A stretch of 61,396 nucleotides of DNA, counting the filler, from Hausera hauseri (Eukaryota): the NCBI GenBank assembly GCA_046269625.1. It is 12 parts of 12 records of this genome, joined end to end, with 100 filler letters (N's around TTAATTAATTAA, not from the genome) between each part and the next. Parts side by side here need not be neighbours in the genome. Positions count along the whole stretch, not along the records: positions 34,015 to 38,060 come from JBJURY010795535.1; 11 more parts are not named here. One strand, given 5' to 3'. Shown here in pieces: positions 2,286-57,015 of the stretch. The position numbers were made by a program, and so were the translations under genes. The notes under the pieces were generated by a model that saw only the letters and a list, made by a program, of their open reading frames with translations, did no database searches and had not been told where the DNA came from. Position 1 is the stretch's first letter, and each line of letters begins with the position of its first letter.

Positions 2286-2295
2286 TTAATTCCAA

Positions 2296-2818
2296 TGTAG
2301 TAAATAAAATAAATCCAAAATAGAGTAAAATCCAAAGAAAACAGCAGGAAGATTGACTATAAAGTTTTATTCAAAGTTATAAATCATTTAACAACTACAA
2401 TCAATAAATTATCAAAATCTATTTTTTGCATATTTACAATGATTAATTTCAATAACGCTTTAAAAAATATATCAGCACGGTCCATTTGGTTTACTTCAAT
2501 TGTGTTGCCGATCAATAATGAATGGTCAACTATATTGCGTTTGAAAAGAATCTGTGTAAATATTCGATGTTGTCATACATCAAATGGCTATTTCTTCAGA
2601 AAGGAATATTATAGACGTGTGAAGCGACGTAACCATTTATTAAATCGTTTGGGATTTGAGCTGACTTTAATAAAACAATAAGAACATCGTCGATTAATTG
2701 TCGCAAAACGACACAATGTCCTTGAGATTCTTGAAATAGATTGAGTGAGAGAAATTGAAGATTAACGATTTGCAAATCAGGTGACGAAACCGAGCGCCCT
2801 CACGGCCGCGGCACCACA
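2296..2818 (-). mobile_element. Putative 3' LTR of a gypsy element
   Basis: On the minus strand a purine tract ACGGGGGTGA is immediately followed by TGTGGTGCC..., with a candidate end ...TTTACTACA. It lies directly downstream of the integrase. Confidence 0.55.
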
Positions 2819-2918
2819 TCACCCCCGTGGCAAAAGAGAAACTATGTAAATGGAAAAAGAATGATGAAGATAATACAAGTGACAACAACGAATCGCAACA
2901 AGAAATAAAGCTTGGTTC

Positions 2919-10176: not shown

Positions 10177-10516
10177 TCATGTTATTGCAGATCCAATCAG
10201 TCCACCCAGTAATGACGTGACAATCAGTAGAATTGCACCAAGGAATCCGCCATCTTTCTGGTACATGACCTCTCGTTTCAGTCGTTTACTACGGGAGTTG
10301 GCAAGGCCAATAAGCCGTTTTCGATACTTTAGTAAATTCCGCATTCCACAACCAATGTCAACGTGACCCACAACGATACTGTATAAAATTTCCATCAAAT
10401 CGTTTACTACAAATTGTGGGAATGATCGTAGCATGTTTTGCTTATGTCTCGTAGGTGCTTTGAGCAAAGCAATAAAGTACAGCAAACTACGTTTGAATCG
10501 AATTTTTTGGACGCAT
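10177..10516 (-). CDS. Polinton/adintovirus pX-like small protein with GG|FL protease site and C-terminal amphipathic helix
   Basis: ...KRLKREVMYQKDGGFLGAILLIVTSLLGGLIGSAIT; lies downstream of the packaging ATPase; 5' end frameshifted. Confidence 0.7.
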
Positions 10517-10540
10517 TGATGCTAATGAGACGTAGTTGTT

Positions 10541-10713
10541 TATAACCGTTGCGACTGTGACGGTAATTTGCGTCTAGCTGCTGCTGTTGTTGTTTGACGA
10601 AGCACAGAATTGATTAATCGCTTTACTGTAGCGGTTCGTTTTGATATACGTTTCTTGCCGAGCACCAGCTTGGAAGGTTTTCGTTTAACAATTGTTTTTC
10701 ATAAATTCCTCAT
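10541..10713 (-). pseudogene. Small Lys/Arg-rich putative virion core protein
   Basis: MRNL*KTIVKRKPSKLVLGKKRISKRTATVKR...; a homolog MKNFRKTFVERKPTKQVPKKKR follows the second ATPase copy (57972-58053). Confidence 0.5.
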
Positions 10714-10723
10714 TTTGTCACAA

Positions 10724-11386
10724 TCATATAGTCGGTTTTTGAATTTGTTTATAGACACATACAAAACCTTTCTGATTGAAAATGTCTGTTCGTACACTCA
10801 CGTCATCGGGACACTGCTGTGTAAAGTCAATGAACAAGTATCCGTGTGGCTCGGTTGTAGCATCATGATATGCATCTATTAAGTAGGCTCGATTGTGAGT
10901 AAATGCTTGTCGTGCAACATAATCAATGATAGTCTGATCACGGGGATTTTTGAACAGCATCAAATAGTGTACGTTTAGATTTCATGTTCGATGATGTCCA
11001 CCCTGATGGAACATGTTTTGCGTAGTGATAATAACCGTCACACCACAGTGCCGTGCAATCTTCGTGAACAGGTTGTTGAAGTCCGATTGTTTCGTCGTCT
11101 CTTGAAATAAATCGTCAATGACAATAACGTCACCGTTGCGCAATCTCTCTGAACAGATCTCACCAAATTCATCAATTACCGTTATCGATGATTTCAGTTT
11201 ACAAAATTCCTGATGTGTCAAACCGGACTAACCATAATCACCAACACCCTGATGCCAGTATATGTGATTGTACCGCGGTGAATGGGACATGTCACGGTAG
11301 TTCTGCAATAGTCTACACACAAAATGTGTTTTGCCACTTTCACTGGGGCCTACAATCTGGAAAATGGCATCATTCTGCAGCTTCAT
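10724..11386 (-). pseudogene. Polinton-type A32/FtsK-like DNA packaging ATPase
   Basis: One frame: MKLQNDAIFQIVGPSESGKT (Walker A)...VIVIDD (Walker B)...ARHCGVTVIITTQN...LFKNPRD...PHGYLFID, with two in-frame stops (11228-11230 and 10982-10984). Confidence 0.92.
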
Positions 11387-11478
11387 CTAATAATAATAAT
11401 GCAGCTTTTCCTCAACAAATGATTGGTTTATAATCGTGTTACACGAATATAAATAGCTACAGTATAAACACTGTTTTC

Positions 11479-11940
11479 ATAATTTTAGCTAATATCAACT
11501 ATCGCGGATATGTTACCGAGTGTAACATTAACACACTACCTTTTAATCAATGGAAACCGATGCAGCATGTCCTAAAGTGTCCACCGGATTTTACATGCAT
11601 CATATTTCAATCGGGAAAGTGTCGTGTTATGGGCTGACGCAAACCAATCACAGCTGAAAGCAGTAAGAGTAAACTACTACCAATCGGAATTGTCCTTGAC
11701 AAAATCCAATCAATAACGGTAACGACTCAGTTAGACTACCAAACAATCAATCTTTACAAATTAGCAATGACCGCTACTGAATGTACATATGAACCCAAAC
11801 TGTTTCTTGCACTGAGACTGACACCGTTTCGTCCGCTTTTTGTCAATGTGTTCAGCACTGGAATAATTGTTTTACTCGGTATTCGGACAGTGGACTATGA
11901 ACCAATTATTAATCAAATTAAAAACTACATAAATGTTTAG
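11479..11940 (+). pseudogene. TATA-binding-protein (TBP)-fold protein, element-encoded (not in ORF track)
   Basis: ILANINYRG...TCIIFQSGKCRVMG*RKP...IQSITVT...INLYKLA...YEPKLFLAL...VNVFSTGIIVLLG shows both TBP repeats (IFxSGK; YEPELFP; IFxSGKxVxxG). The start is ATA and there is one TGA at 11635-11637. Confidence 0.8.
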
Positions 11941-12283
11941 TGAACCAAAATAACATACTCTGCATACAAAAACAAACTATAAATACCATTCCCATGCTCA
12001 TTAAGACATTACTACCATGAAAGACGAATACGAAACTGTTTGATTTTATCGGTCGCGAAATGTCTCATGTACCCGATGATGATGGTAGTTTAAAGTGTCG
12101 AATGAATATTAAACTGCAAGGATACAAGGAAAAAGTCGGTATCAAAAGCCCGATTTAGCGTGTAGCAGAAGCACATTTTAATTATCAATAGATTTTGTTG
12201 TTTTACCGTTCTTCTTCTTCTTCTTCTTCTTTTATTAACCCAATTAGCAAGTAATGCAATTTTAAAAAATAGGCATAAGAATA

Positions 12284-12754
12284 ATGATTATGAATTATGT
12301 AAAGATTATCTTAACAGACAAAAATGCCTTTGTACCCAGACGTGTTACAGCAAACAGTGCAGGCTACGATGTGCTTTCCAATGCCATTGTGACAATTCCG
12401 AACAGCAAAATCAAATGCATAACGACTGAGACTCGATTGGCGATTCCGCCCGGTTACTACGGCCAACTTTTATCGAAAAGCGGATTGGCAAAGCTCGGAG
12501 TGACAGTTGTGGGCGGCGTCATTGATTCAGACTTTCGTGGTGAAATTAAGGTGTTGCTTGAAAACCAATCCGTGGAACTGTATGCTTTTTCGAAAGGCAA
12601 TGCAATCGCACAAATCGTTTTTCTTCGCTGTGAAGAGGTGGAATTCAGTGTAATGTCACCGAAACAATGGGGATTCTTTTGTGTCAATGAATCAACACGA
12701 AATGAACGCAAAGTATTTGGTTTTGGTGATATGGACAAAACCACCTATGTTTAA
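12284..12754 (+). CDS. dut: Trimeric dUTPase
   Basis: Motifs AGYDV, KSGLA, GVIDSDFRGEI, IAQIV and a degenerate motif 5; ORF is open. Confidence 0.93.
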   Translation: MIMNYVKIILTDKNAFVPRRVTANSAGYDVLSNAIVTIPNSKIKCITTETRLAIPPGYYGQLLSKSGLAKLGVTVVGGVIDSDFRGEIKVLLENQSVELYAFSKGNAIAQIVFLRCEEVEFSVMSPKQWGFFCVNESTRNERKVFGFGDMDKTTYV

Positions 12755-12809
12755 TAATTGTGATAATAATAATAATAGTTAGTTATTTTGTTTATATTAC
12801 AAACAAAAA

Positions 12810-13319
12810 ATGACTTTGTACGAGATAAGTAATGGGACAGGATTTATAGATATTGAAGCTTTCCAAGGTGATAATGCCTGGTACATAATAATGGAATTAT
12901 GCATTATGGACGTCGGTAACATTTTCAAACCGCTTGTGTACGTATTTAAGCCCGCCGTTACGTGGAATCATTTGACAGAAAAGGGGAAAATTACCAATGG
13001 ATATCTCATACGATGTCGTCATTGACTTTATTGGAACGAAGGCAATTCAACGTTTTGCGTATCATGTATCCTGCGAGACATTTGTGATCATTTTGACATT
13101 GAAAATACAATATTTTACATTAAAGATCAAATTGACGTACAAAAGTTTACACAACTTCATTCACAGTTTCCCGAGTTGCAAATGAAGACGTATTCAACAT
13201 CGAACAGCTCGCTAACGATGGTACCTGACAATATTATATGTCCGTATCGTTATCATAGACCGAATTGTGTTTACAAAAATTGTCTACGGCTTTGAATTGA
13301 CTATATTTCATCCAAGTAA
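12810..13319 (+). pseudogene. DEDD/DnaQ-like nuclease-family protein of Polinton-like elements
   Basis: FIDIEAFQ...IIMELCI...FKP..W..L...TN.YL...H*LYWNEG...CPYRYHRPNC; two in-frame TGA. Confidence 0.6.
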
Positions 13320-13434
13320 ATAAATGTTTTTCTCTGTTTCTTTTTTTCTTTCCATAAATAACGTCCGCCATATTGGTCAGTTGAATAATTCAAAACTATA
13401 AATATGAGTAGTTATAGTAATAACAATCATCATC

Positions 13435-27055: not shown

Positions 27056-27149
27056 AAAGCGTGGGATTAAAGAATAACAATATTAATAATCAATTACTTC
27101 ATATTGAGTCGTAGTAATATTGCAAGAGTGATGCATAAGATTTATTTAT

Positions 27150-27835
27150 TTATGCAATGACGGTTCCGTTTTTCGTTATTTCAACCTCTGCATCAAATAC
27201 ACTGTAAATATACATCACGGTAGACTGTTCCAACACGGGTAAAGTGAACCTCCAATCGCAGGTTTCCCTTTTAAGGTAATTGAACCTGCTCAACGTCATA
27301 GTCAGGAGCAAGGACAAATGTGAAGAATGGATAGGTGGACTTGAACAAATCCATCGATATGCCATTGTTGATGGTTTTGTTGAGCATACCCATGTTGCGC
27401 ACGATGGATTGCATATGTGCAAACATAATCACTAGACTCAAAGTTTTGTTTGTACGTCTTAACGAAATCCGCATTCCCACCGAAACTGATGTAATTTATA
27501 TTGCTATGTGTAAACGTTTCCGAATTGCTCGTATAACTTCCCGTTTGTTGAACAGTCGTTTGAAATGTAACGAGCACGAATTTCGGCAATCGCATGTCGC
27601 CAAACAGTGCATCTTTGTAAAACGTTGAACCTTTGGGTATGGTGTAAAAGACGAATTCTGTGCGTTTTAATGGGTAACATGCATTTGGTGATTCCAAGCT
27701 TAATCGATGTCCCTTGAGCACAGATGGTTCTACCTTTACACAACGTACGTATAATCGTGCCTCAGTAATTTTCAGTATGGGTTTGAGAATTGCAACGGCG
27801 GTTTTCAAACAAAAGACATTGTCGCTGCGTTTGAG
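27150..27835 (-). pseudogene. Polinton major capsid protein (double jelly-roll), C-terminal half
   Basis: LKITEARLYVRCVKV...YPLKR...LPKFVLV...YPFFTFVLAPD...GNLRLEVHF...YSVFDAEVEI. Confidence 0.85.
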
Positions 27836-28803
27836 CCGATGTAGATGCCACAGGTAGGTACATTGGATTATCGAGCTTGACAGTGACATTGTCGCCGGCA
27901 GTATACCTGCTGCTTTCCAGATAAATTGCGCGGAGTAGCGGTACAGGTATTCCACCGACCAAAATCGGTTCGGTGACGTTCACGTAAATGTACATTTGTC
28001 TTAGACCAGTTTTCAGTTTGGGTTTAAGTGTTGCAACACGTGCCGCCGCCGCAGCTGTCGATGCCTCAAACCGCTGTTTTCCAAAACCTAATACTATGGC
28101 CAAAGATTTGTCCAGTGAAATGTCGACAATTTCCTTAGCCAGTTCAAATTTAATGTACCCATTTGCATCTGACTCGAAAACTTTAAATATCTCCTTGTAC
28201 TTTTGATTTGAAGAAAAGTGTTGACAGATATGTGCTACACATTCGCAATAGACATTGTCTCCAATCGATACATATGACATTGACACCCTTTCCGTTGTAT
28301 AGGTAAATTTCACCGTTGTCTGGTAATATACGGGACTTAATCTTGGACCAACTGCATATTCACTTTTAATGTGTACCTTTGTACTCTGTAATTTTGTATG
28401 AAAATTTCTGCACCATCTCAGAGGACGGAAAGGTAACAGTAAATTCAAAATCTGTCATAAAATGTAAGTTTCGATCTAAAATAATAACACCGATTTTGCC
28501 GTGTGAACCATAATTTGCTTCTCTCATTCAAATGGCCAATTCCCCAACCGTTATTTTATTGTTTGTAAGTGTCAGAGGACAAAAATATGTTTTGGTTTTA
28601 GTAATACTTTTGTTGTACGTTATTTTCATATTACCTTTCAATGCCACCGGTGCGTAGGGAAAGTTAAATTCCGTCAGTGCAACCGCCCATTGTCCAGCAG
28701 ATAAATCCAAAGGATTTTTCCAATCTACAACGTATTCACTGGCGGAATTTTTCGGTCGAGTTGTTGGACAATTGTTGCTCGGCAACACCATGTGAATACT
28801 CAT
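27836..28803 (-). pseudogene. Polinton minor capsid (penton) protein 1
   Basis: MVLPSNN...PKNSASEY...PLDL..QWAVALTEF; C-terminal MYIYVNVTEPILVGGIPVPLLRAI...PMYLPV. Confidence 0.85.
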
Positions 28804-28845
28804 TTTCTCGATGATAGTGATGATAGTGATGACGCAGTTTGTTTA

Positions 28846-29105
28846 TTATCGACGACGTCGTAAATGTAACGTCAAATGTGTCGTTGACCCGAACAGAAAT
28901 TTAATGGGTTCCCAAAATTCATCAAGTATATAGACTGAAATACTGTGCACAATATTGTGAGGCAATGATAAGTACATAGGTCTGAACATAATAACGCGAA
29001 CAGTTTCACCCGATGATTTGTACGTGTCAGAATCCAGTTCGATAGAAGCCAGTAGTTGTTTACGTTTTCCACCAACAAGTATGGATTCGGTTAAGTCCGT
29101 TAAAA
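28846..29105 (-). CDS. Second penton/minor capsid paralog, C-terminal part (not in ORF track)
   Basis: Open frame LTDLTESILVGGKRKQLLASI...FRPMYLSL...ISVYILDEFWEPIKFLFGSTTHLTLHLRRRR*. Confidence 0.8.
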
Positions 29106-29205: not shown

Positions 29206-29590
29206 ATTCTTATAGTGAATCGTATTTGCTTTCGAGCACACCCGGTCACATGTGCTAATCATCAATATTGGATGTATCCGAAAACCGATATTATAGATTT
29301 TTGCACACTTTCACATGTGCTGCGCACCTGCACTGTGCACCAATTGATGAGCACTAATGTGCAGTATCGATTAGCATTTGGTCCCAATCGATTCGACCAA
29401 TTGTTCAATGTTCAGCTATCAATTTGTGAAATGTGCAAAAAAATGCTGAGCAACGTGCTTAACGGTATCTAACGTTGCCTAGCAAATTTCCGATCGATAT
29501 GCTCCATGTGCGCCATCGATTGGCACTTGTGCAAATTTATTTATCGATTCGCACACCCCCGTCGGGGTGGTGCAGACTTCCCATTTTCTA
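29206..29590. repeat. Palindrome-rich 'common region', copy 1 (3' end with GC hairpin)
   Basis: Aligns by eye to 34330-34705 and 43850-44180; CACCCC..GGGGTG hairpin followed by CAGACTTCCCATTTT. Confidence 0.85.
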
Positions 29591-31299
29591 CCTACTTTCT
29601 GCAACCTCACCAAACGTAGGGGTGCTAACCCTTGGTTTAAAATCGCCAAGTTTTCCTTGAGGCACATGCCTAAACCTCTCATTTTCTCTGGAGGTTTGCT
29701 CTATTTTCTCCAACTCCTTCTCTACTTCTTCTATTTCTAAAACTTTTATCCCTACTTTGCCATCGTCAATCCTTTTATAGCTTTACCTTCCTTTTCAAAT
29801 TGTAATTTCCTTCTTTTAAATGGTGCTTCATTTACTTCCATATCAATGTCTACTTCTTGCTCTTTTACCCCCTGCGTAATATCCCAATCCATCGAGATCC
29901 TTTCATTGGCCCAACTTATTGACCATATTTTCTATAGATCTCTCTTCCTTGACTTTTACAAACTTATAATCTTCTTGTGGAACCCATTCCTGTGGTGCTC
30001 ATTTTTGCCCCATAAAATTGGTATATAGTATGTTTTACTTAAATACACAAACAAATGTAAATGAAAAAAATTTTATGCATCGTTTTCAATTCGTTTAATA
30101 ATTACATGCCGATTGAATTTTTTTATATACTGATTTATTCAGTTTTGTTATCCAATGTAACATTTCAGAAATCGTTTGGTGTTACTATTTTAGAAATTAC
30201 GTTCAGGCTAAAGTTAATGATATGTTACTTATTCAAGTCAATCCGTACAAATTAAATTTTTACCATTTTGTTAATTTTGATCTCGAGATATTACTGAAAC
30301 GAATTTGTCGGATTTAATTTTATGGAATATACTACAATGACCTTTTCGCTTCCTAATACTCAATCAGTATTACAGATGTCTCAAAATCTACCGAATTCTG
30401 ATGAAAAAAATTACAGATGTGAACGTTTTTCGTTGGGTCCAAATAATGCATACGATGATAAAATATTTCTCGTATCAAAACCAACCAACCAATCCACAAT
30501 TACGTACTTCCGTGCGATTAAATTATTCGAAAAATATGCAACCCTTCTCAATTCCACTTTAGGCTTCGTATTAAATTTTTCAAACAGCTCATAGCCAACT
30601 TGGAGCACTTGCCACACTGTAATTTGATGATCTTCCCATTTTCCTTTTGTGTTTTCTCATCTTTGCTGGAAAGGGAACATTTTGACTTAAATCTGACTTA
30701 CATCTAATACATCCGAAACAAACGATACTATTACCTTTAAAAAATTTCCTACATAAATATAAACCACTATCGTTCTTTGCTATTCTACATTTTCCTGCAC
30801 TTTTAACCTAATTTTAAGTTGTACTTCTACTACTTTTATCAACAATTCCCTTACACAGGATATTTACCATCTTTCTTTTACTTCTACTATCTGATCGGGA
30901 AACCGTAGTTCCCTAATCTTAATAAACATTCTAACTAAGAAATGCCAAAATTGGGCACTTCCATCTTTCAACTTATTAGGAATACTAACCGGTGAAATAA
31001 AGTTCATCTCTCAACAACAATCAAGGCTATACAATGAAAGACTGCTTTGAGTAACTGCTATAAAATTACGTTACAATATATAGATTGTGTTTTTGAAATT
31101 TTTTAAATTTCAGATTGTAACATAATTATATTTTGTATTAGTCAGGTTGTTTTACGTTATGAATTACTAAATAAATTTGTTTCAATAAATACATTTGTGG
31201 GTTTCCTTCAAATTCAAATAACCTATCCGGATACTATTGCATTTTATCTATAATTGAATTTAACAGGCTGCTGCTTTCCGCTAAGCAATGTATGCTGTC

Positions 31300-34014: not shown

Positions 34015-34705
34015 GCACTGCACAGTACATAACAATCTGCATCTTGATGTTCGCTATCTATCTTCACTTAACACCGGTCATTTCCATCAATCCTACGCTA
34101 CACAATGACCAAAATGTTAAAAGTGAAAAAGTGCCTTGGCAACCGTATCCAAGAACACACCTGATTCGCGTATTGCACTGATCGATAGTACACGAAGTAC
34201 TGCACCTTCCAGTATATATACCATATTAATATTATTGATTTTCAATTTATAGCGGAAAGGCCTATGGGAAGTCTGGCCCAGTTGGCAGTTATTCGAAAAC
34301 CAATCAATATATTTAAATTCTAACTGCACTACACACAGTGCATCATGTATGCTACCGATTGCACCCGGTGCCATGCCCCATTAATGAATATTGGTAATAT
34401 CGGAAATCCGATATTATTGATTTTTGCACACTTGTAAATGTTCTGCACACCTACACTGTGCACCAATCGATGCGCACTGATGTGCACTATCGATTAGCAC
34501 TTTGTCCCGATCAATTTGATCAATTCTGCACTGTGCAGCGATCGATTTGTGAAAAGTGCAAAAGTGCCCTTAGTAACCGTGCCTAGGGGCTCCGTCACCT
34601 AGCACTCTTCGGATCGATAGTGCTTCGTGTACAATATCGATTGGCACTATCGATTTATCGCCGCGTGCACCCTGCCCCCCAGGCGGTGGGCCAGAATCCC
34701 CATTT
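34015..34705. repeat. Common region copy 2 (3' part with hairpin)
   Basis: Shared blocks AAAAGTGAAAAAG, GCGGAAAGGCCTATG, TTTAAATTCTAACTGCAC, CGGAAATCCGATATTATTGATTTTTGCACAC and CAGAATCCCCATTTT. Confidence 0.9.
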
Positions 34706-35117
34706 TTACACTACTTCCTTCTGATAATTTGCATACATGATACCTGTATTCTGTCCTTCTGATCTCAACTGCATCTTTTAGATTGGTGGTTTTCGGGCAT
34801 TTCAGAAATCTGATCTGATACCCCATGAAATTTTGGACGGCTTTAAATTGATCCATCCTAAGTGCCTTTACTGTCCTTTTTGGCTGTGTCAGCAATTCAT
34901 CATCTTCGAACATCTTGATAAATTCGGCACATTCTTTATCAATTGCATCTAATGGTTTTGCGCTGATCTTCTTAATTTCTTCTTTTTTGGTACTGGAACT
35001 ACTGGTGGTGGCATTCGTGCAGCGTCTTCAAATGATTTAATAAATCCAACAATTATTTCATCATTAATATCCTCCATTCTTTTTTCAGGTTGAGTGAAAT
35101 ACTGGGAGTCCGTCATT
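34700..35117 (-). pseudogene. Hypothetical protein with basic NLS-like patch, frameshifted
   Basis: MTDSQYFTQPEKRMEDINDEII...PVPKKKKLRR, continued in another frame by MFEDDELLTQPKR... Confidence 0.4.
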
Positions 35118-35344
35118 TCACTGGAGCAGGAAACATCATTGCAATAAGATATTTTGAATAAATGAAAATTATAAGGGCGTCAATACACAATGTCTTGAAA
35201 ATTTTAAAATTCAAATTTGAATTTGAATTTTTGCGATATTCTAGAACATTCTAGAATATTCTGGAACATGCAAAAAATATTTCTGTTTTACTGCATCAAT
35301 TTATTTTACAAATCTAATGCGTTGTTTAACACACGCTTTAAACT

Positions 35345-35842
35345 ATGCCATTTAAGTGCTGAGCAATATTAATTACAAGGGCTTCACTACAGCTCCGTTA
35401 GATGGACTTCTATTCCAAAATAGATCTACACAATGTGCTTTACGATACCCAGAATTTACAATTATACTCTTTTTCAGCGGAAAATGTAGAATAATGAGCT
35501 GCAAACAACCTATCAATCTGTGCAGTTTACCCTTCAATATCAAAATTCAATCAACACAATCAATTAGAGTGATGTGTGATTTTTTTGAGCCGATAAATCT
35601 CAATCTATTGGCAATGAACAGTCCATCTATTTACGAACTTGAATTGTTTCCTGTACTTAGACTAACTTGTTATAATCCTATGTGTAAATGTGTTTCAAAC
35701 CGGAAAAATTGTTATTACCGGCTTGAAATTTTTCAATTATAGTGATTTTGTTATTAGGGCTTTAGGCAATATATTATTATCGACTTATGTCTCTTTTCGT
35801 AAAGCAACATGCGTGTATACAACTTTATTAACACAACAATAA
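35345..35842 (+). pseudogene. Second TBP-fold protein, frameshifted
   Basis: LSNINYKG...FTIILFFSGKCRIMSCKQPI...QSIRV...INLNLLA...YELELFPVLRL, then after a frameshift VNVFQTGKIVITGLK; collinear with 11479-11940. Confidence 0.82.
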
Positions 35843-35871
35843 TAATCTGTCATTATACCACCTCTACGTGA

Positions 35872-36123
35872 TCAATACTGAATATCAACCCCCTCTTCTT
35901 TGTCAATAATAGCGATTTCAGTTTCATCATCACCGTGCACACTGTGTTTGCAATCTTCGCAACATTCTTCAGACAATTCAGTATCTTCAGTTTGATTAGA
36001 TGCATCTACGTATTCATTTTATCCACCAAGGTCGCATTGAACACATGAATATTCTGAAACATCTTCGTAGGACGCATCATATTCTTTGTTCATATCAATT
36101 ACTAGATTATTAATAAAGTCCAT
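35872..36123 (-). pseudogene. Small acidic Cys-containing hypothetical protein
   Basis: MDFINNLVIDMNKEYDASYEDVSEYSCVQC...ELSEECCEDC...; one internal stop; TATATAAA about 100 bp upstream. Confidence 0.4.
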
Positions 36124-36289
36124 TATGCAAGTCATATTCTACATTTAGCACTTGTATATACACCCCAAGTAACACACTTTGTTTTAATGCACTAATTATA
36201 TACCGGCACCAAATTCAATTTATATATAGGTTTTCATTCATGGGAATCGAACGACGTCATTAGATTCTTCGAATAATTTACGCTTGATC

Positions 36290-37351
36290 AAGTATTCGAG
36301 TTCGAATAGCTAATTATTCGACTGTTAAGCTCGAATTCGAATATCTAACATCATATTCCGATTTAACATATATCACTTGCTATCCCCATACGCTCTCAAA
36401 TTTATCGATTCCCGCTTCACTGAGCTTTAAACGCACATTTTGCTTAATTAAAATATTGATTTTATATCTATATAATACATTTTCATGGAATAATTTTAAT
36501 GCATAAGGAGGTTTTCATAAATGATGAATCGATTGCCTTTGTTAGATTTTTTGAAAAGTTCAAAGTTCGATTTTCTAACTCGAAAATATTCGAATTTCGA
36601 ACCTCTGACTTGAGATTCGAGATCACCATAGTCGACATTCTATCTACTCCCGCTAATTATATTATGGAATTTTGAGTCATAGAAGCAAATAAAATCTATG
36701 GGCATTCGCCACAAGTTACACTTCCGATCGATTTTATTCGAAAACTAATTGATAAATTTAAATTCTAACTGCACATTTATACTCTGCACCATGTTTCTGT
36801 TCCAATGCACCCGGCCACATGTCCTAACCATCAATATTAGAAATTTCCGAAAATATTTATTGTTAATTTTTACACACTTGCGCACGTGTTTTTGCACATC
36901 ACAATATACAATAAGGTGCATCTCAACATGCTCTATCTACCTGTACTTGACCCTGATCGATTGCATCAATCCTGCGCTGCACACCACCAAATATGTTAAA
37001 AGTGAAAAGATGACTTACCAACCGTAACGAAAAGAACACTTGATTCGACTATTTTATTAACCGATAGTGCATCCAGTTCTCTACCTACTAGTATATGTCC
37101 AATATTGATATTATGGATTTTCATTTTATAGCGGAAAGGCCTATGTACCTTCGCCCTCAGTTGACGTTTTATCAAAAACCAATAAATAAATTTAAATTCT
37201 AACTGCACATTCACAGACTGCGTCATATGTGCTATCGATTTCACCCGCTACCGGGTTCATATCATCAATAGTGATATTATCGGAAATCCGATATTATTGA
37301 TTTTTGCACACTTGAACATATGTTTTCGCACTGCACAGTACATAACAATCT
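36290..37351. repeat. Common region copy 3 (TCGA-rich block + ~430-bp TGCAC-rich subunits)
   Basis: Collinear with 42945-43980; TTTAAATTCTAACTGCAC at about 36757 and 37191. Confidence 0.9.
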
Positions 37352-37961
37352 CCATGTTTTTCATTGCAACAAGTGCTCTTGCTTCTTCTGTACCTTAGCT
37401 TTACCTACACAGCATCTATACTATTCACAAGTAAACATCCTTGCAAATATTACTAATGTCTGTGTGAAACGTTTTTTAACCTTAGTAAAAGGCCTTGTTC
37501 TCAATCACCAAGACAGTATAACAGAGCATCCTGGTATCAGCTGGAGATAAGGATGGAGGATAATTGTGACTGCAATATACAAAGTGATCTCAGCCGTGTT
37601 ATTTCTTTACAGCTGATGCAGCAGGTACCCAAAGCATTCCAGTTGATTGACTGATTGGCCCTTTTTTGTCCTCTCAGGCAGTTTGAGATGAAGAAAATTG
37701 CCCAGATAAACAGCTTCTTTCATGACTAAGTCAATCAATGTTTGATCTACAACTCCTGTTACAGTCAAAGCATGCTACATTTCTGTTATTCTATTCTGCA
37801 TCTTTGTGTCTTTATGCTTTGCTCTCCAGTTTATCAAATAATGTAGCATCAAACATTGTAATTCCTTTGTGCAGAGATAACTTCCATGATTTAAAGCATT
37901 GGGAGATGTTGTCTTTTGTGCACAAATCTCCCATCCCAGAACCAAGTTTACCAACAATGTG

Positions 37962-38060
37962 TTTACTTACTTACTTATCCCTACGACCCCTTTGTGGAGC
38001 ATAGGTCGTCTACAAGAGCTCTCCAACCTTTCCTGTCCTGGGCCTTTCTTTCTATTTGGT
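37962..38060 (-). mobile_element. RTE-clade LINE 3' end with (TAAG)n tail
   Basis: QIERKAQDRKGWRALVDDLCSTKGS* followed by GATAAGTAAGTAAGTAA. Confidence 0.8.
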
Positions 38061-42340: not shown

Positions 42341-42944
42341 NNNNNNNNNNNNNNNNNNNNNNNNNNNNNNNNNNNNNNNNNNNNTTAATTAATTAANNNN
42401 NNNNNNNNNNNNNNNNNNNNNNNNNNNNNNNNNNNNNNNNAATAAAGTATTCGATTGAATTTGTGGCCATAATAGATCCTCATGGTATTGTGGCAGGTTT
42501 CTGGCTCATGTATTGGAACCATACATTCTTGGTATAATTTGCACATCTAAAAACAAAATTATTTAACGACAACAAATACGAAAAGACTTATCATTCTGGA
42601 AAGTGATTTGCGGAACTGAATTTGGAAATAATGAAAAATATAGCTATGTCAGCACGCACTGTCTAATTTTGAGAATTGATGCGGTAAAACACACATATGC
42701 AAAATAATTTTGACGTATTAAAATACATGAAATAATGGTGGGGTAAATTCGGCAATGAATATTGTATAGCCAATGTGCATTTGTTTCAATGCATCAAATG
42801 CATGAATTTGTCACGTACCATTTTCTTGGTTTAGTTTTGCTGCATCAAGTATTTTAAATTATCGCGCACGCCATTTCCGAATATGTTATCGTACATGACG
42901 AATCGATTGGCAACATCATATTCTTTGAATAATGCACACATATT

Positions 42945-44180
42945 CGAATATTCGAGTTCGAATAGCTGATTATTCAAGTTTGAATATTCTTTTTGATCAT
43001 CTAACTTTTTATTTCGATGCAGCACATGCGACTTCCAATCCAGCTCCGCTATTAGATTTAACGATTTCCGCTTCATTGAACTTTGAATTCACATGATGCT
43101 TAATTCAAAATATTGATTTGGTATCTATATAGTACATTTTCATGACATAAATTTTATGCACATGGGGATTTTCCAATATAAGGAATCGATTTCCATCATC
43201 AGATTTTTCGAATAGTTCGAACTTTGATTTTCGATTTCGAAAATCCTCGAATATCGAACTATCAACTCGATATTCGAGTTCGGCATACTCGATTTCCTAT
43301 CTATCTCCGTTCAATGTTTGGTCAAATTTTGCTTTCTTACGCTTAAATAACACTGAAAAAATAACCATTTTGCACTTTCAATCGATATTAATTAATAACT
43401 AATCAATAAATTTAAATTCTAACTGCACGTTCATATATTACACCGTGTTTGTGTTCAAATGCACTCTGTGCCGAGTGCTAATCATCCATATTGGAAATAT
43501 CGGAAATTCGACATTATTGATTTTTGCACACATGTTTTTGCACTGCACACCATAGATAAGGTGCATTTCGATGTGCTCTATCTAACTACACTTGATCCCG
43601 TTCAATTTCATCAATTCTAAGCTGCACAGTTGCAAAAGTGCGTAAAGTGAAAAAGTGCTCCTGTACACCGATCAATAATCACAGCACACTCGATTTGTGC
43701 ACTGATTGAAAGTGTATCGTCTATTGCACGCGCCTGTATATGTGTCATTTTGATATCTTTGATTTAAGATTTATACCGGAAAGGCCTATGGCGGTTTGGC
43801 CGCACTTGCGGATTATTTGAAAAACAATCAATCGTTTTAAATTCTAACTGCACATTCATATACAGCATCAAATGCACTACCGATTGCACCCGGTCCCGAA
43901 TTCTAATGATCGATTTTTGAAATCTCGAAAATCCAATATTATTGATTTTTGACACTTGCACATGTGCTGCACACTTGCCCTGTGCACCAGTCGATGCATC
44001 TCAATGTGCTCTATCGATTAGAACTTTGTACCGATCGATTCGATGAACAGTGCATTGTGCAGCGATTGATATGTTAAAAGTGCAAAATGTGCATAGCAAT
44101 GGCGCTATATCAATCGGCAAATGTGCAAAATTGATTTATCGATTACCCCTCCCTCCGGGGTGGGCAGAATCGCCATTTTA
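42945..44180. repeat. Common region copy 4 (most complete), directly upstream of pPolB
   Basis: TCGA-rich block, two TTTAAATTCTAACTGCAC subunits (~43410 and ~43836), ACCCC..GGGGT hairpin, CAGAATCGCCATTTT. Confidence 0.9.
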
Positions 44181-44526
44181 TTACAACTCTGGTAATATAC
44201 ATTCACCAGAATCATGCGAATAAACCGTGTCAATCTACTATGGTGCAAAAATCGGCGGATGTCAATTTTATATATGCCCAACCTGTGAGGTGATTTCGTG
44301 ATTACATTTCAATGCGTTTCGACAACAACATCGATGTTATCTGTCATACTTTAGGAAACCGAAAAAATATCGTTCGAGAACACAAATATATGATAAACAT
44401 GGCCAAACAATTTGTATTAGACCAACAATTTCCAACAACACATCAACCAGCCAAGCGAGCAAACAACCAGACTAAAGAGTCCATTCCCATGAAAAAACAA
44501 AGACTGCAAAATCAAACTCTAAAAAT

Positions 44527-47500
44527 TTGAAACTTAATGTACAATCTGTTTTTGCTAATAATTATTTGAGTTTCTGTTTTTATGTTTTGCCCGACTATCT
44601 TATTTCTACTCGACCGCCTAAAGAGATTCTAACTACTTTACAAATGTACACTTCTCGGTTTCCATCTTGTAAGATTCAGTATGGTCTTGAAATTCTTTTT
44701 GAAAATTCTGAAGGTGACTTTAAGGAGGCATATATTTCACACAGAGCTGTACAATATAAGCAATCTTACCGGCAATCGGTAGCTGATAGTTTAAGTAAAC
44801 AAATTGAGAATTTTTCCGAAATGGGTAGTGGGTGGAAGCTTGTGAAAATTCTTAAATACAGTTTTCATATAGTGAAAACAAGACCACCACCTTATTTGTC
44901 TGGCAAGTCCTATATTCCTACATCTGACGCTTTAAATTTCGCAAAGGCCGTTATTAATGTGCAAAATGACGATATTTTGTGTTTCTTATACTCCATTCTT
45001 GCAGTCACCAAGTATTCTTATATCAATCATAATAGATTTAGAGTTGGAATTTACACTCCTTATTTAAGCGCGTTGAAATATTCTGTCGATGATATGCCGA
45101 TGAAAATATGCAACATAGGTAAATTTGAAAGACAAAATCCACAGTTGTCAATTAATGTTTTTCTGTTTTGTGAGGTGGACGATGTGGATTTTGATGAAAA
45201 TATAGTAAAACATTTATTTGTTGATATTTTGTATCGCAGCAAAAATCCCAATGGTACTGTAGTTAACTTACTGATTCTTGAGAATGGTGATCACTTTCAC
45301 TATGTTGCTATCCCTAACTTGAATCGCCGGTTAAACGTACAATCTAAAAACATAAGAATTCAATGTAAACATTGGTGTGAAAAAGGTTTACACAGCTTTA
45401 GATACGACACTGCTTATGCTAAGCATTTACCAATGTGTATGTGTAATTCTAAATGCATGACTTTGTATAAAATGCCAGAAAATAAGTTTTGTGAGTTTAA
45501 GGACTATGCAAAATTCATAAGTCCTCCTTTCGTTGTATATCCTGATTTTGAATCGGTTCTTTGCCCTGACGATAAGGTTAAACATATTCATTTGCCTGCT
45601 GCAGCTGGCCTTCTCTTAGTGTCCCCATCAGATATTAAATATAGGCAATTTGTTGTTGAAAATTCTATAGTCGAATTTTTAGCTTGTCTGGAGGATATAA
45701 TGAAAACCTTAGTTTTTCCTTTCTAAGAGAATGCAAAAAAATCGATGATTCTGTTAACTTCTGAATCGTCTCGTTTTAAAAATGCAACAACTTGTTACCT
45801 CTGTCATGAAACCGGTTCTCAATTTGGTTGAGATCACTGTCATGTTACGGGTAAATTCTTAGGCACTGCTTGCAACAAATGTAACTTATCACGTCAGGTC
45901 AGATTCAATTTACCTGTTATGTTTCATAACTTGCGTGGATATTACCTGTATCATACCTTGAAATACGCATTGAGTAAATTCGGAAGTTGGGAATTTAGTA
46001 TTATTCCACAAACAACAGAGAAGTTCCTAACAATGAATGCAATGATCCGCTGTTCAGGTAAAAAGTCAGTTACTATTAAATTTCTAGACACTTTGCAATT
46101 TCTATCGGCTTAACTGAAGACTTTAGCTTCAAAATTAGATTGTTACCCATTTACTGAGTCGTCTTTTCCTTCTGAAATTATTAATGGAAAAGGTATTTTT
46201 TCATATACTGCAGCCAAATCTTTCACTGACTTGCAGTCTATTAAGGAATTGTCGCCAAAATTGGATGTGGTTAGTGATACGTAAGCACAACTGGCTTGGA
46301 CGAAATACAGTTGTACCTGTCTTTTAGATTACGTGTTGGTATACATGAAACTCGAGGTATACTTGTTAGTCTGTTTTTGAGCGGTTTAGAAAAGAGGTTA
46401 AGTTGCAGGATGATTTAGAGGCAGTTAGTATCGTTTAAATTCCGGGTTTATCTAGGGCGACAGCATTAAAATCAAGTTCTTGTAAGATTGAGCTTATATA
46501 GGATCCTGAAATGTATCCGTTCTTTCAATCAGGTATTCGCGGCGGTATGATTTTTGTAAATAAGCATAAGGTTGTAACAGATGAAAGCACCAGTCTCTTG
46601 TATATAGATGTAAATAATCTCTATTGCTGGGCTTTATCTCAACCTCTGCCATTTGTGAATTTGACTTGGATATACGATGAGGACACATTAACAAGCCTGA
46701 CTGAGCAATTGCCTTTTATTAACACTGTTAGGGAAAAACGAGGCTTAGTTTTGAAGTCGACTTGAGCATTCCGGAAGACAAACATGGTAACTTTGATTAA
46801 CTACCTCTAGTCCCTATCAACCGATGTCCTCCTGGCTCTAAAGTAAAGAAATTTTCAGTGACACATGAGCGTAAGTATACTATATTGTTCACTACAGGCT
46901 CTTACAGTTATGCATCGAGTTAGGCGCTGTAGTTGAAAAGGTTCATCGGACTGTTGAGTTTGATCAGGAATACGTTTTTAAGGATTACATAGATATAAAT
47001 ATTGAAAAGAGGGCTGCAGAAAATAATCCTTTTGAAAAAGACTTCTTTAGGCTTAATAATAATATCTTATATTGGAAAACAATCGAAATTCTGCTAAAAA
47101 TATCAATCCTTAGACTGTGCAATAATGCTAAAAGCTTAGTTACATATGCTAGTAAGGCCCAGTTTAAAGAGAGCATTATAGTAGTCGATGATCTGGTTGC
47201 CGTTCTTCTCGATAAAGACATGGTCACCTTAGATAGGCCCTCATACATTGGTCTGGTTGTTCTGAATCTATCCAAATTATGAATGTATAAAATGAATTAC
47301 ATAGAGTTGTAGTCATATAGGCACCAGTTTTAGTGTGAACTTAATGTTTTTTCCGGTGACACTGACAGTTTCTTTCTTGAATGTCGCGGTGTTGATTTGC
47401 GAACACAGCTCTTACCGGCAATGATAGCCAATGAATAGTTGGACACTTTGAACTATGACAAGAGTGATCCACTGTACTCGACTCGTTTCGCGTCTGTAAT

Positions 47501-47834
47501 TGGAAGATTTAAAGACGAAAGTAAGAGCTACGTTGAATATCAAGAGTCAATTTTCCTACGGCCGAAATTCTATGCCCTCAAAACCCAAACGAAACCAGTC
47601 CTCAAATGCAAGGGCGTCGATCTCAAACAGTCCGATTTGCAGTTCAGCAACTACTTACAATCATACGAAACCGGTTGCAGTACCATGGTGGATCAGGAGC
47701 GAATTGGCACCAAAAATCACCAGCCGATGACAATCCATTCGAGAATAAAGGCGTTGGATCCATTTGATGACAAACGTCAGTGGATAACAAAGAACAAAAA
47801 TGTCTCATATGGACATTATTGTACAAATGTGTAA
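44527..47834 (+). pseudogene. Protein-primed family B DNA polymerase (Polinton type) with vOTU-like and endonuclease-VII-like segments
   Basis: GSGW; INVQNDDILCFLYS...HYVAI; VYPDFES (ExoI); V*DHCHVTGKFLGTACNKCN; FHNLRGY; KGIF; IRGG; YIDVNNLY; NNILYGK-like; GDTDSFF; GRFKDE; LRPKFY; DDKR. Confidence 0.95.
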
Positions 47835-47979
47835 ACATTTACTGTGTGCATATTTTCTGATTTATTTGTATGTTATAAATAAAATTTTATTGCATTTTTT
47901 ACGTTATTACATACAAGCATGATTATCTTTGCATGTAAACTACATTTTGAGTGATTTTTGGTTTAAACAATAGCTATTG

Positions 47980-48389
47980 ACTAGGGGTACATGACAATGA
48001 AAAAATATTCGAAAAGTATTTGAAAATCGAGTTTTTTCCAAAAAATGGAAATCGATAATTTTGATTTTATTTGATAGAGGATATTTTCCTGATCCCGACA
48101 AACTTTATCGCAGGTCACTACGACGTTTCGGGGCTGAGATATTGTGTTTTGAATATTTTGAGCACTGAAAATCCAATTTTATTTTAAAGTCTAAATCGTC
48201 GATTTTAATTGGAGTCGATAGAGAATTTTTTTCTGCATCTAACCCACTTGATTGCGGGTCATTATGATTTTTCGTTGCGGAGATATTTCATTTTGAAAAT
48301 TTTTTTCGAAATAATCGAATCGTTATGTATTCGAATGGATAAGTCATATTGACTTGCGACCTTTACCAGTCGATAGAGCTCAAAAAACT
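47980..48389. repeat. Degenerate ~150-bp tandem subrepeats (GATAGAG anchors), transposon subterminal-like
   Basis: GATAGAG at about 48073, 48217 and 48372 with similar flanks. Confidence 0.45.
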
Positions 48390-54608: not shown

Positions 54609-54741
54609 GTTCACAGTTTGCATGACATTGGTGATTAGTGTTCACAGTATGCATGACATTGGTGATTAGTGTTCACAGTTTGCATAACATTGGTGATTAG
54701 TGTTCACAGTTTGCATGACATTGGTGATTAGTGTTCACAGT
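54609..54741. repeat. 31-bp tandem minisatellite, at least 4 copies
   Basis: GTTCACAGTTTGCATGACATTGGTGATTAGT repeated head-to-tail. Confidence 0.95.
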
Positions 54742-55048
54742 TCAGTATATAATGTAATATCATTTTCCTTTAAGAATTTATCAAAATATTTTGATATTAT
54801 TCCTGCTTCTTTATCAAACAAAATTTTATTTGAAATTCTTTGATCATTTTCAAATATCAGTTCAAATGATTCTCTTAGTGTTTCTTGGGTTTTACTTTGC
54901 ATTGGAATTGCCCATCCAATATACACCAATTGCCTTGGTTTATAAATCAATATCAACTAGAATCTATTTGTATTTTTCAACATGTTTATTTGTTTGGCAT
55001 AACTGCTAAATCTGCTGCCCATGTATCATCTTTTTGATAAACATGTAT

Positions 55049-57015
55049 ATTGTATTCCGTAATATCTAATTCAAAATCAATTAAACAACAATGTCCAATA
55101 TGGCAAGTAACAAATTCCCAAAATCAAAATTTCAAAGACAAATAGATCAACCAATTGAAAATTATTCGGAATGAAAGTTATTCAGAATGACGTTTATCGA
55201 ATGCACCAATTCCAAAATACATAGATATCAAAAACCGGGAATAGCAAAATTCAAAAATTCAAGATGTCTGAAAAATCAATGTATTTGTTAACTCAATTGC
55301 CAAAAACTAAAACAATTTTGTACAATATTCAAACAACTTTTATTAGTGGATGATTGACAGGAATCCGTTAAACTCGGCACAACCAAACAATGACAAATAT
55401 GATACTGGGAAGCGTTATCAAATATAACACCGATTGAGTCGGAAATCGAATTCGTAGAAACAGATTTTCTATAACGGAGATTCTGATAGGAATTGTAGAA
55501 AATTAGAATTGAATTGACTATTTGAAGTAAAACTCCAACAATAAATGTAATCAATCAACAATTGATGACACTGAATACATTTAAAACAACACGGATGCCA
55601 GAAGCATAAATCATTTTGTGGCATTGTGACACAAATTTCACCAAAACTGATAACTTCTAGACATTTATGACATGCCCAAAATTGATGTTTTGCAACCGAA
55701 GCAATACGTTGCAAATTTGCTCTCATAGCAATTTAGACACTGGCGAATCATCTTTGGTTACAAAGTTTGTCGGATCAAGTTTACAATTAGTGACTGCACT
55801 GGAAACAGTGATTATATAATCAATTTTCAGTGTACGAACATGACATATCTGTATGGAAATCGAAAAAACAATCTTTACAAATGAGGCATTTTGGATCTGC
55901 CGTTATCGAATTAGCTCGGGATATTTCCCTGTTTCTATTTAATGTCGAAAATTCGTCGTCGTCATTCAATTGTTTGTTACAAAGAATACAATGAAGACAA
56001 TGTTTATGCCATAAATGCTTAAGTATTGTTACTGAATTGTCGTCATTTACATCGATAGGTTCACTGCATGATGTACAGACGAAGCGATCATTTATGCATA
56101 ACATTCTCAGCATGAAATAAAACTATTTTTCATTCGCTTGAAAGATTCTTTGTCTGTCATATTAATGTATCATGACAAACGTAACAACTTTTACATTCTG
56201 AATGTACTATAATCGTTTCATTGATTTCGTTTAATTCTGCTTTTGAAAATGTTGTGACAATCACCAGAAACTGCAGTACGAGAAAATCGGAAATTTTCAT
56301 TACCTTATCGGGTAATTCCAAAATCACTTCCTCACATACTGCACAAATGTTTTGATTAAGGCCGTAAAAACATTTCAAACATTTCCATAATTTCTGTAAC
56401 TCGGAATCATTTGAATCAAGAGCAAACCGAGAACCAACAAGATTAGAATGACAAATTCCGCATTGTAAATGTTCAGTATGATAATGTTCATCCAAAGCAG
56501 AAACATAAGTTTCATTGAAAATCAACTCATCACAACTTGAACATCTAGGATATCGTCGTTCATCAAAATGACGCAGACAATATGGTTCACAATTATCCGT
56601 ATTATTATCCCCGATTAATATGACTAAGGTCAAGTTTTTAACTTATCATAGTTTGCGACTTTATGTACTTAATTGATCCAACAAACTACAGCGTTTTTAA
56701 CTTTCGACTTTTCATATTTCGTTTATTCGACTTAGAAATTTTACAAGTATGATCGACGGCCTTCGAACAAATAGAATAATGAATTGACATCAAGATTTCC
56801 TTTTATTTCCCTGTATCTTATCGAAACATCATTTAAAAACTGTATAAGTTGGTTCATTGCTCAACTCGATGATTTCTTGTAGTTCATCTTCTAAATATCT
56901 CGGTTTTCAACGCAGAAAAACGGAACCCGCCTATGCGTCCGACGCGCAGGCAGCGGGAAACCCGGTCGTGCCCAACCGAATAGGCCGGAGAGCAACAGTC
57001 GACGCGGGCACCACA
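55049..57015 (-). mobile_element. LTR-like insertion (starts TGTGGTGCC) flanked by an ATGTAT duplication, carrying LIM coding sequence
   Basis: ATGTAT at 55043-55048 and 57016-57021; the terminus matches the first 9 nt of the LTR at 2818. Confidence 0.7.
55469..56620 (-). pseudogene. Multi-LIM-domain protein (Prickle/Testin/LIM-9-like) fragments
   Basis: YCLRH...PRCSSCDELIF...H.EHLQCGIC; CTSC...WHKHCLHCILC; CHKC...WHPCCFKCIQCHQLLIDYIYC. Confidence 0.85.

What the first reader, a model, noticed from the sequence alone, without database searches (positions are those of the whole stretch)
34015..37351. Terminally redundant 3,313-bp unit: a candidate circle made of common region + TBP + two small ORFs
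Seen: the first 24 nt of the contig (GCACTGCACAGTACATAACAATCT, 34015-34038) recur exactly at 37328-37351, after which unrelated DNA begins. Joining the ends rebuilds one continuous common region (TCGA block, three subunits, hairpin) plus ~1.5 kb of cargo. Inference: an extrachromosomal minicircle, a tandemly arrayed unit, or one segment of a multipartite element.
Basis: partly seen in the sequence, partly recalled or inferred. Interest (0 to 1): 0.85.

Follow-up and report, generated by a model that had tools for sequence, protein, structure and literature searches.

The report
Maverick transposon end, not a minicircle
The repeated "common region" is the end piece of a Maverick (a virus-like jumping gene of animals) lying on both sides of a few broken Maverick genes, and the apparent 3.3-kb circle is most likely a chromosomal repeat that the assembly collapsed, so this is probably ordinary genome debris rather than a new minicircle.

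Summary
The 24-nt repeat is real (34015 and 37328, exact, unique in the window). The "common region" is a Maverick/Polinton terminal repeat. Its three window copies stop matching in register at an ACT end; the end at 34698-34715 matches 16 of 18 nt of both termini of a 21.6-kb polymerase-plus-integrase virus contig. An intact Maverick carries the same TBP-like gene near its right end. The unit's TBP copy is broken, and the repeat is very high-copy and diverged in two public runs. DNA after 37351 is CpG-depleted (2 seen, 20 expected), likely from another, vertebrate-like genome, so the 24-mer marks a chimeric exit. The biological junction is 34715|34716, where a Maverick end is joined into a Maverick accessory gene. 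Best reading (0.72): two identical or near-identical ends in direct orientation around 1.5 kb of decayed cargo in an invertebrate chromosome, collapsed by the assembler. A free self-insertion circle (0.13) or single-end segments (0.06) are not excluded: the junction could not be tested with raw reads, and all three ends abut virus-type reading frames.

The parts
34015..34038 (+). 24-nt word, first copy (contig start), inside an internal ~434-nt subunit
34015..34288 (+). distal half of an internal subunit of the terminal repeat
   Evidence: 75% to 36894ff, 71% to 43540ff; alignment
34289..34715 (+). last subunit, GC-rich stretch and outer end of the Maverick terminal repeat
34698..34715 (-). 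Maverick terminus read inward (AGTAGT end motif); element ends at 34715
   Evidence: homology between the 3 window copies drops from 20-22/30 to 9-10/30 here; 16/18 to both ends of a 21.6-kb polB+integrase contig
34716..35116 (-). unknown basic ORF in two frames, likely cut at its 3' end by the terminus
   Evidence: no Pfam or Atlas hit
35239..35266 (.). six alternating GAA/TTC cores resembling a heat-shock element (motif recalled), between the divergent ORF and TBP-like gene
   Evidence: only such array in the window; also a 10-nt tandem repeat
35356..35791 (+). TBP-like pseudogene of Maverick type: non-ATG start, frameshift near 35677-35685, changes at conserved residues
   Evidence: Pfam TBP 6e-5; 77%/74% to intact P0001 in two frames; family alignment
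35875..36138 (-). small acidic Cys-containing ORF in two pieces
   Evidence: no Pfam hit
36226..36733 (+). TCGA-rich inner part of the terminal repeat (weak homology back to about 36140)
   Evidence: 74% to 42881ff
36734..37166 (+). subunit 1 of the second terminal-repeat copy
   Evidence: period 434
37167..37351 (+). proximal half of subunit 2, ending in the second copy of the 24-mer (37328-37351)
37352..38060 (.). tail from a CpG-depleted, vertebrate-like genome (inferred), ending in a LINE-like 3' end (RTE type, recalled); not part of the element
   Evidence: CpG 2 seen vs 20.3 expected in 37352-37930; X1 depth 2.7-4.25, no X2 cover
29206..29596 (+). sister terminal repeat (last subunit and end) in contig 7
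   Evidence: 74%; end at 29596
42881..44188 (+). whole sister terminal repeat (two subunits, about 1.3 kb) in contig 10
   Evidence: 70-74%; end at 44188
44236..47819 (+). broken protein-primed DNA polymerase gene, starting 48 nt beyond the sister end

Best explanation
The 'common region' is the terminal repeat of a Maverick (Polinton) element, and the 3,313-nt unit is likely a chromosomal piece of decayed Maverick arm flanked by two identical or near-identical copies of that repeat in direct orientation, which the assembler likely collapsed into a loop. Shown: the repeat ends at 34715 in a Maverick end motif; that end is joined directly into a minus-strand ORF; TBP-like pseudogene, acidic ORF, TCGA block and subunits follow. 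Inferred: an integrase joined a Maverick end about 1.5 kb inside the terminal repeat of the same or a sister copy (nested insertion, or a head-to-tail duplication that starts exactly at the end). Inferred: a chimeric molecule joining subunit 2 to vertebrate-like DNA gave the graph an exit at 37351, and the contig was cut one short word before that branch, which yields the 24-nt overlap. The unit would be a non-coding fossil with no function of its own.
For: End motif in register in 3 of 3 copies, identity 20-22/30 before and 9-10/30 after; (ACT)2 is the commonest Maverick end (PMC8097293 section 7). 16/18 match to both termini of a 21,601-nt contig with pPolB, rve integrase and a ~197-nt inverted repeat; best match in the window. 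Intact Maverick L017 has polB, A32 ATPase, rve integrase, C5 protease and the TBP-like gene followed by tandem repeats, a TCGA-rich block and a CCTACT candidate end. Its proteins hit contigs 3, 6, 8, 10, 12. TBP and polB are broken. Run X1: 40,834 contigs laid, 3,251 at 99%+ and 27,987 under 95%; summed depth 3.5e3-8.7e5 over the repeat, 256-3,064 over 34690-35634, about 4 over most of the tail; X2 shows the same profile. Exact X1 contigs: cargo 11.9 and 14.6, repeat 23.5, about 2:1 (one repeat contig only). Tail CpG o/e 0.10, lowest of 85 comparison windows 0.50. Contig 1 joins a GC-rich cadherin exon to AT-rich DNA mid-exon. Contig 9 also starts on a short shared word (27 nt; 1.3% of positions do).
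Against: All 3 ends in the window abut virus-type or unknown ORFs, none plain host DNA, and polB begins only 48 nt past one of them; nested insertion needs selection of viral contigs to explain this. No second, inverted repeat and no target-site duplication could be seen. Only one of the three ends is a perfect ACTACT; the others match the outside terminus 11/18. The pattern was designed after seeing L059, and 2 of its 4 hits are internal and likely chance. The 24-mer carries letters seen in no other window subunit, which fits one molecule meeting itself as well as two fresh copies. Contig 8 passes a 37-nt repeat twice, so a simple use-once k=25 assembler is excluded and the assembler is unknown. 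Single-copy depth of the invertebrate is not calibrated. A three-subunit repeat would be about 1.8 kb, above the 46-1,447 and 100-1,500 bp ranges read.
Confidence: 0.72

Rival explanations
1. A real extrachromosomal 3,313-bp circle made when an excised Maverick inserted its own end into its own arm (autointegration deletion circle), caught or amplified in this library.
For: The loop's only non-homologous junction lies exactly at the element end. The 24-mer is private to this unit. Deletion circles are described for other DDE transposons (PMC3952818 passages), and a circular one-TIR Maverick scaffold for C. bovis (10.1101/2022.07.12.499685 passage). Contig 4 has an exact 13-nt terminal repeat, so loops occur in this library.
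Against: The cargo is old and decayed (it differs from most copies in both runs). Exact-match depth is only 12-24, and the repeat:cargo ratio is about 2 rather than 1. The 37351-34039 joint is not among the 15 joints shown (73 hidden; such a contig could be counted as running over the end, so this is weak).
Confidence: 0.13
2. The contig path is a mosaic through many similar copies, and no single molecule has this layout.
For: Tens of thousands of 85-99% alike contigs and many subunit-hopping joints in X1; no listed piece spans the stretch; the run holds only 0.42 of sampled words; cross-organism joins occur in the bin.
Against: Exact X1 contigs overlap across the TBP gene (35365-35548, 35525-35795). 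X2 holds the same parts at about 90% identity, one piece running from 36169 into the TCGA block.
Confidence: 0.07
3. A segmented Maverick-like element keeps its genes on separate single-end circles or head-to-tail concatemers, each with one copy of the repeat (polymerase segment in contig 10, TBP segment in contig 8, a third in contig 7).
For: 3 of 3 ends abut different virus-type or unknown ORFs; polB starts 48 nt past one end. Segmented polB viruses with shared ends exist (Vesanto virus, PMC8363768 passages).
Against: The repeats are only 70-76% alike between contigs; TBP and polB are broken; contigs 3 and 6 hold ATPase and capsid genes with no repeat; contigs 7 and 10 run on into other DNA; the same TBP-like gene sits in an unsegmented Maverick.
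Confidence: 0.06
4. The common region is a non-autonomous Helentron/Helitron (HINE) with central tandem repeats that landed twice beside Maverick genes.
For: High copy number, internal tandem subunits and a GC-rich stretch followed by T's near the 3' end resemble HINE structure (PMC4067079 passages).
Against: It ends in ACT, not a T run or CTRR; no 12-15-nt inverted pair at the required distances; the end matches a Maverick terminus.
Confidence: 0.02

Closest known systems
Maverick/Polinton elements (adintoviruses) and their degraded genomic copies
   Same: (ACT)2-type end; long terminal repeat; pPolB, A32 ATPase, capsid and protease genes in the same bin; TBP-like gene near the right end of an intact relative (L017); most copies degraded, as reported for vertebrates (PMC8097293).
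   Different: The unit is 3.3 kb, has no core gene, and shows two repeat copies in direct, not inverted, orientation. The repeat is 1.3-1.8 kb, built of ~430-nt subunits, and appears far more abundant than the median 8 copies reported for vertebrate Mavericks.
Circular one-TIR Maverick scaffold of Caenorhabditis bovis (10.1101/2022.07.12.499685, passage)
   Same: One terminal repeat closing a loop between internal genes.
   Different: That is a 17.4-kb, largely complete element; here the loop is 3.3 kb, decayed, and not shown to be circular.
Autointegration deletion circles of Sleeping Beauty and piggyBac (PMC3952818)
   Same: An element end joined precisely to an internal site of the same kind of element.
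   Different: Shown there in transfected cells for cut-and-paste transposases; not seen for Mavericks in my searches, and circularity is untested here.
Segmented polB viruses (Drosophila Vesanto virus, bidnaviruses)
   Same: 3-6-kb pieces sharing terminal sequence; polB on one piece.
   Different: Those segments are linear with inverted ends, coding and at high copy; here the genes are broken, the repeats are direct and 25-30% diverged.
HINE/DINE-1 non-autonomous Helentrons
   Same: High copy number, central tandem repeats, GC-rich stretch near the 3' end.
   Different: No subterminal inverted pair at the required places, no T-run end; ends like a Maverick.

Membership tests
Maverick/Polinton | 5'-(AGT)2 // (ACT)2-3' type end motif | tested here: met
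   ACTACT at 34715; CCTACT and ACAACT at the sister ends; 16/18 to both ends of a polB+integrase contig
Maverick/Polinton | terminal repeat present twice, inverted, around one element | not testable with these tools
   contigs are 4-7 kb and show one end each; the two copies in contig 8 are direct; no genome held
Maverick/Polinton | 5-8-bp target-site duplication | not testable with these tools
   no paired ends available
Maverick/Polinton | pPolB, rve integrase, ATPase, protease and capsid genes within the element; 13-25 kb | tested here: not met
   none in the 3.3-kb unit. polB, ATPase, capsid and protease homologs lie broken on contigs 3, 6, 10, 11, 12; the only integrase hits were the gypsy ones. 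So a remnant, not an autonomous member.
Maverick/Polinton | cargo is of Maverick origin (TBP-like accessory gene) | tested here: met
   48% relative inside intact Maverick L017; second copy beside the ATPase in contig 3
Autointegration deletion circle | element end joined exactly to an internal site | tested here: met
   34715|34716
Autointegration deletion circle | covalently closed extrachromosomal molecule | not testable with these tools
   only Logan contigs were served; the joint was not among 15 shown of 88
Multipartite virus with a common region | near-identical common region on all segments | tested here: not met
   70-76% between contigs
Multipartite virus with a common region | intact coding segments | tested here: not met
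   TBP frameshifted, polB with stops and frameshifts
Multipartite virus with a common region | origin stem-loop with conserved nonanucleotide and a Rep gene | tested here: inconclusive
   hairpin not significant in 2 of 3 copies; no Rep among 42+22 window ORF pieces scanned in Pfam; nonanucleotide not searched
Helentron/HINE | 12-15-nt subterminal inverted repeats 2-4 nt from the 5' end and 38-60 nt from the 3' end | tested here: not met
   best pair in contig 8 is 11 nt with a mismatch, about 300 nt inside; the 16-nt pair of contig 10 lies 485 and 99 nt from the ends
Helentron/HINE or Helitron | T-run or CTRR 3' end after a stem-loop | tested here: not met
   homology ends in ACT; CTRR-like words lie beyond the end in 2 of 3 copies

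The most novel reading that the evidence does not exclude
A Maverick family has split into sub-genomic circles or head-to-tail concatemers that each carry one terminal repeat joined end-on to a different gene set (polymerase; TBP-like; others), and the window holds their endogenised, decayed copies. That would be a segmented Polinton with a viral TBP mimic under a heat-shock-like promoter.
Probability: 0.06. Interest if true: 0.8.

Novelty: new member of a known kind. Interest (0 to 1): 0.27.

Why it matters
As it stands it is a caution: terminal redundancy plus a shared "common region" in a bin of short contigs can be a collapsed Maverick end with a chimeric exit. Two smaller points are useful. 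First, a ~150-aa TBP-like gene is a recurrent Maverick accessory gene (one intact element here, two broken window copies, 125 clusters at E<=1e-10, a count that includes ordinary TBPs); in the papers searched I saw it only in figure legends of the adintovirus preprint. Second, if the circle reading held, it would be a natural trace of Maverick integrase acting on its own DNA, or of a segmented Maverick, either of which bears on the open question of the extrachromosomal Maverick life cycle.

Tried and rejected
Own genome: none held. Repeat motifs in viral contigs: 0 hits for two patterns. In metagenome contigs: 11 of 11 hits were chance, with no extended match. Repeat against the records behind L013/L014: 0 of 2; L015/L016 not held. 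Close TBP and polB relatives in viral contigs: none confirmed; the alignment search gave 5 loci, of which only L012 was read (ordinary giant-virus TBP). In genome contigs 40 loci came back; only L017 (the top hit) was read, the other 39 were not. No RNA holder listed. Rfam: one sub-threshold hit outside the unit. Basic ORF: no Pfam or Atlas hit. Tail as Pif1-like: no PDB match. Host identity: LIM fragment found no relatives; organism not identified. TBP in contig 7: not found. A 145-nt base monomer under the 434-nt period: not seen. Use-once k=25 assembler (Inchworm): rejected, as the contig reuses 37- and 26-nt words. Contig 4 as a seamless circle through dynein: rejected, the homology stops at the repeat. 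ACT side as the inner edge of the repeat: considered because polB starts there, rejected. L017's other end is not in its contig, so its CCTACT end is a candidate only. Arithmetic suggesting that X2 cover of the cargo begins near 34719-34724, just past the end, is a weak hint only. Earlier scan findings: 0 in four look-ups. Literature searches listed no paper on segmented, autointegrated or TBP-bearing Mavericks beyond those cited; only the listed titles were seen. No structure or complex jobs were run.

Full report
Setting. The window is 12 contigs of 4-6.8 kb joined by N-linkers. It holds animal DNA (gypsy, dynein-2, kinase, LIM) and broken Maverick/Polinton genes. No genome is held. The finding lies in contig 8 (34015-38060).

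Observation. The 24-mer is exact at 34015 and 37328 and occurs nowhere else. It is not a generic subunit motif: five other subunits match 10-16 of 24, and only 18 of 2510 positions in paralogous alignments start an exact 24-nt run. The two half-subunits fall in register; the loop is 3313 nt. The 'hairpin' of this copy is not significant (z -0.86).

What the common region is. It occurs in contigs 7, 8 (twice) and 10 at 70-76% identity: a TCGA-rich block, then two or three subunits of 425-434 nt. The three 3' ends stop matching at one register, CCATTTT plus nine bases ending in ACT, at 29596, 34715 and 44188; identity is 20-22 of 30 before and 9-10 of 30 after. (AGT)2//(ACT)2 is the commonest Maverick end (PMC8097293, section 7 read). 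Of 11 viral contigs found with a polymerase alignment, one began with a near-identical word. A pattern built from it matched both extreme ends of that 21,601-nt contig, which has pPolB, an rve integrase and a ~197-nt inverted repeat; 2 further hits were internal and are probably chance. The window's 34698-34715 matches that terminus at 16 of 18 and is the best match in the window; the sister ends match 11 of 18. The common region is therefore a Maverick terminal repeat whose outer end is at 34715. Lengths of 1.3 kb (contig 10) and about 1.8 kb (contig 8) sit at or above the published ranges of 46-1,447 and 100-1,500 bp.

Cargo. The TBP-like gene (35356-35791) hits Pfam TBP and is 77% and 74% identical, in two frames, to an intact 147-aa protein. 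It has a non-ATG start, a frameshift near 35677-35685 and changes at conserved positions. The family is large (125 representatives at E<=1e-10, ordinary TBPs included). The top genomic hit, L017, is an intact Maverick: polB, A32 ATPase, rve integrase, capsids (by position and similarity), C5 protease, TBP-like gene, then tandem repeats, a TCGA-rich block and a candidate CCTACT end. That is the order seen here: TBP, small ORF, TCGA block, tandem subunits, end. TBP is named in figure legends of the adintovirus preprint (10.1101/697771, passages). The other two ORFs are in pieces and have no known relatives; the basic one runs into the terminus. The true non-homologous junction of the loop is thus 34715|34716.

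Abundance. Two public runs hold the stretch (0.42 and 0.07 of words); X1 may be the source and is not independent support. Only contigs were served. In X1, 40,834 contigs were laid at 85% or more: 3,251 at 99%+, 9,596 at 95-99, 18,417 at 90-95 and 9,570 lower. Summed depth is 3.5e3-8.7e5 over the repeat, 1.4e4-7.4e4 over the 3' half of TBP and the acidic ORF, 256-3,064 over 34690-35634, and about 4 over most of the tail; X2 repeats the profile at about 1/40, with pieces about 90% alike. These sums are not copy numbers, but the pattern is that of an abundant, diverged repeat family. Exact X1 contigs have depth 11.9 and 14.6 (cargo) and 23.5 (repeat). Many contigs of both runs differ from the window copy in and around the broken TBP, so the decay looks private to this copy. 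The joint 37351-34039 is not among 15 joints shown (73 hidden), and a contig across it may be counted as running over the end; the test is inconclusive.

The tail. 37352-37930 has 2 CpG where 20.3 are expected (o/e 0.10); the lowest of 85 comparison windows is 0.50, the median 1.0, and the unit 1.05. X2 does not cover it; in X1 one exact contig of depth 4.25 covers 18 nt of the 24-mer plus 360 nt of tail. Its last 130 nt are high-copy, with an X1/X2 ratio near 740 against about 43 for the repeat. Contig 1 joins a GC-rich cadherin exon to AT-rich DNA mid-exon. I infer that the tail comes from a vertebrate-like genome by a library chimera; a methylated intron of the same animal is not excluded. 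Contig 9 also starts exactly on a 27-nt word shared with a paralog, which 1.3% of positions do, so contigs here break at short shared words. A branch at 37351 then explains why the contig starts 24 nt earlier. The assembler is unknown; one that uses each 25-mer once is excluded.

Mechanism. Shown: a Maverick end at 34715 joined into an accessory ORF, followed by a decayed right arm and a second direct copy of the repeat that shares a private 24-mer. Inferred: an integrase put an end of the same or a sister copy about 1.5 kb inside the repeat, giving end-cargo-end in the chromosome (nested insertion or head-to-tail duplication), and the assembler collapsed it (0.72). The same junction would arise in an autointegration deletion circle, as described for Sleeping Beauty and piggyBac (PMC3952818, abstract and passages); a circular one-TIR Maverick scaffold is reported in C. 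bovis (10.1101/2022.07.12.499685, passages). Decay, modest depth and the 2:1 ratio speak against a free circle but do not exclude it (0.13). A mosaic path gets 0.07. Unexplained: all three ends abut virus-type or unknown ORFs, and polB homology starts 48 nt past one. Selection of viral-looking contigs can account for this, but single-end segments remain possible (0.06); against them stand 25-30% divergence between repeats and broken genes (compare Vesanto virus, PMC8363768, passages). A HINE reading fails its end tests (PMC4067079, passages).

Verdict. A decayed piece of a new Maverick family with long, subunit-built ends: a new member of a known kind, not an autonomous element, and no evidence for a minicircle. 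Interest 0.27. The original Polinton paper was not held and is known here only through the papers above; supplements were not read.

Noticed in passing
window 14353-19040 (contig 4): Exact 13-nt direct repeat at both contig ends, at the point where a dynein-2 heavy-chain pseudogene breaks off; the contig is a mosaic of dynein, gypsy and other DNA. Looks like a microhomology loop (circle, tandem duplication or amplification artefact).
   Followed up: partly
window 1-1100 (contig 1): A GC-rich cadherin exon (FAT-like, recalled) is joined mid-exon near 1060 to AT-rich DNA with a kinase pseudogene: likely a cross-organism chimera.
   Followed up: partly
window 19141-25002 and 54609-55000: CpG-depleted, vertebrate-like DNA (contig 5; start of contig 12 with a 31-nt minisatellite) in a bin that is otherwise invertebrate-like.
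   Followed up: partly
window 35239-35266: Six alternating GAA/TTC cores, a textbook heat-shock-element pattern (recalled), between two divergent Maverick accessory genes; the only one in the window. Could be a 10-nt slippage repeat.
   Followed up: partly
window 9987-14252 (contig 3): Broken Maverick module: core protein, packaging ATPase, second TBP-like gene with a stop, dUTPase, exonuclease-like ORF and RING finger.
   Followed up: partly
window 25103-29105 (contig 6): Broken Maverick minor capsid (two pieces), major capsid and protease genes, by similarity to L017.
   Followed up: partly
L017 (contig in a bacterial MAG from genome contigs): An intact eukaryotic Maverick with a TBP-like gene, binned into a bacterial genome: contamination of that MAG.
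   Followed up: yes
terminal repeat copies, e.g. window 36226-37351: ATCGAT is about 20-fold and TGCAC about 11-fold denser than in the rest of the window; ATCGAT resembles the insect DRE promoter motif (recalled).
   Followed up: no
window 29597-31010 (contig 7): Beyond the sister end lie several broken unknown ORFs (one basic with an NLS-like motif, one with CxxC), then piggyBac-like fragments (recalled; Pfam gave no hit).
   Followed up: partly
window 55288-56642 (contig 12): Very divergent LIM-domain pieces whose order looks unusual for testin/prickle (recalled); no relative found.
   Followed up: partly
window 47950-48389: A separate repeat with a 144-nt period after the polymerase gene, unrelated to the terminal repeat.
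   Followed up: partly
L064: Another polB+integrase contig with an inverted repeat of at least 545 nt at 98%.
   Followed up: no
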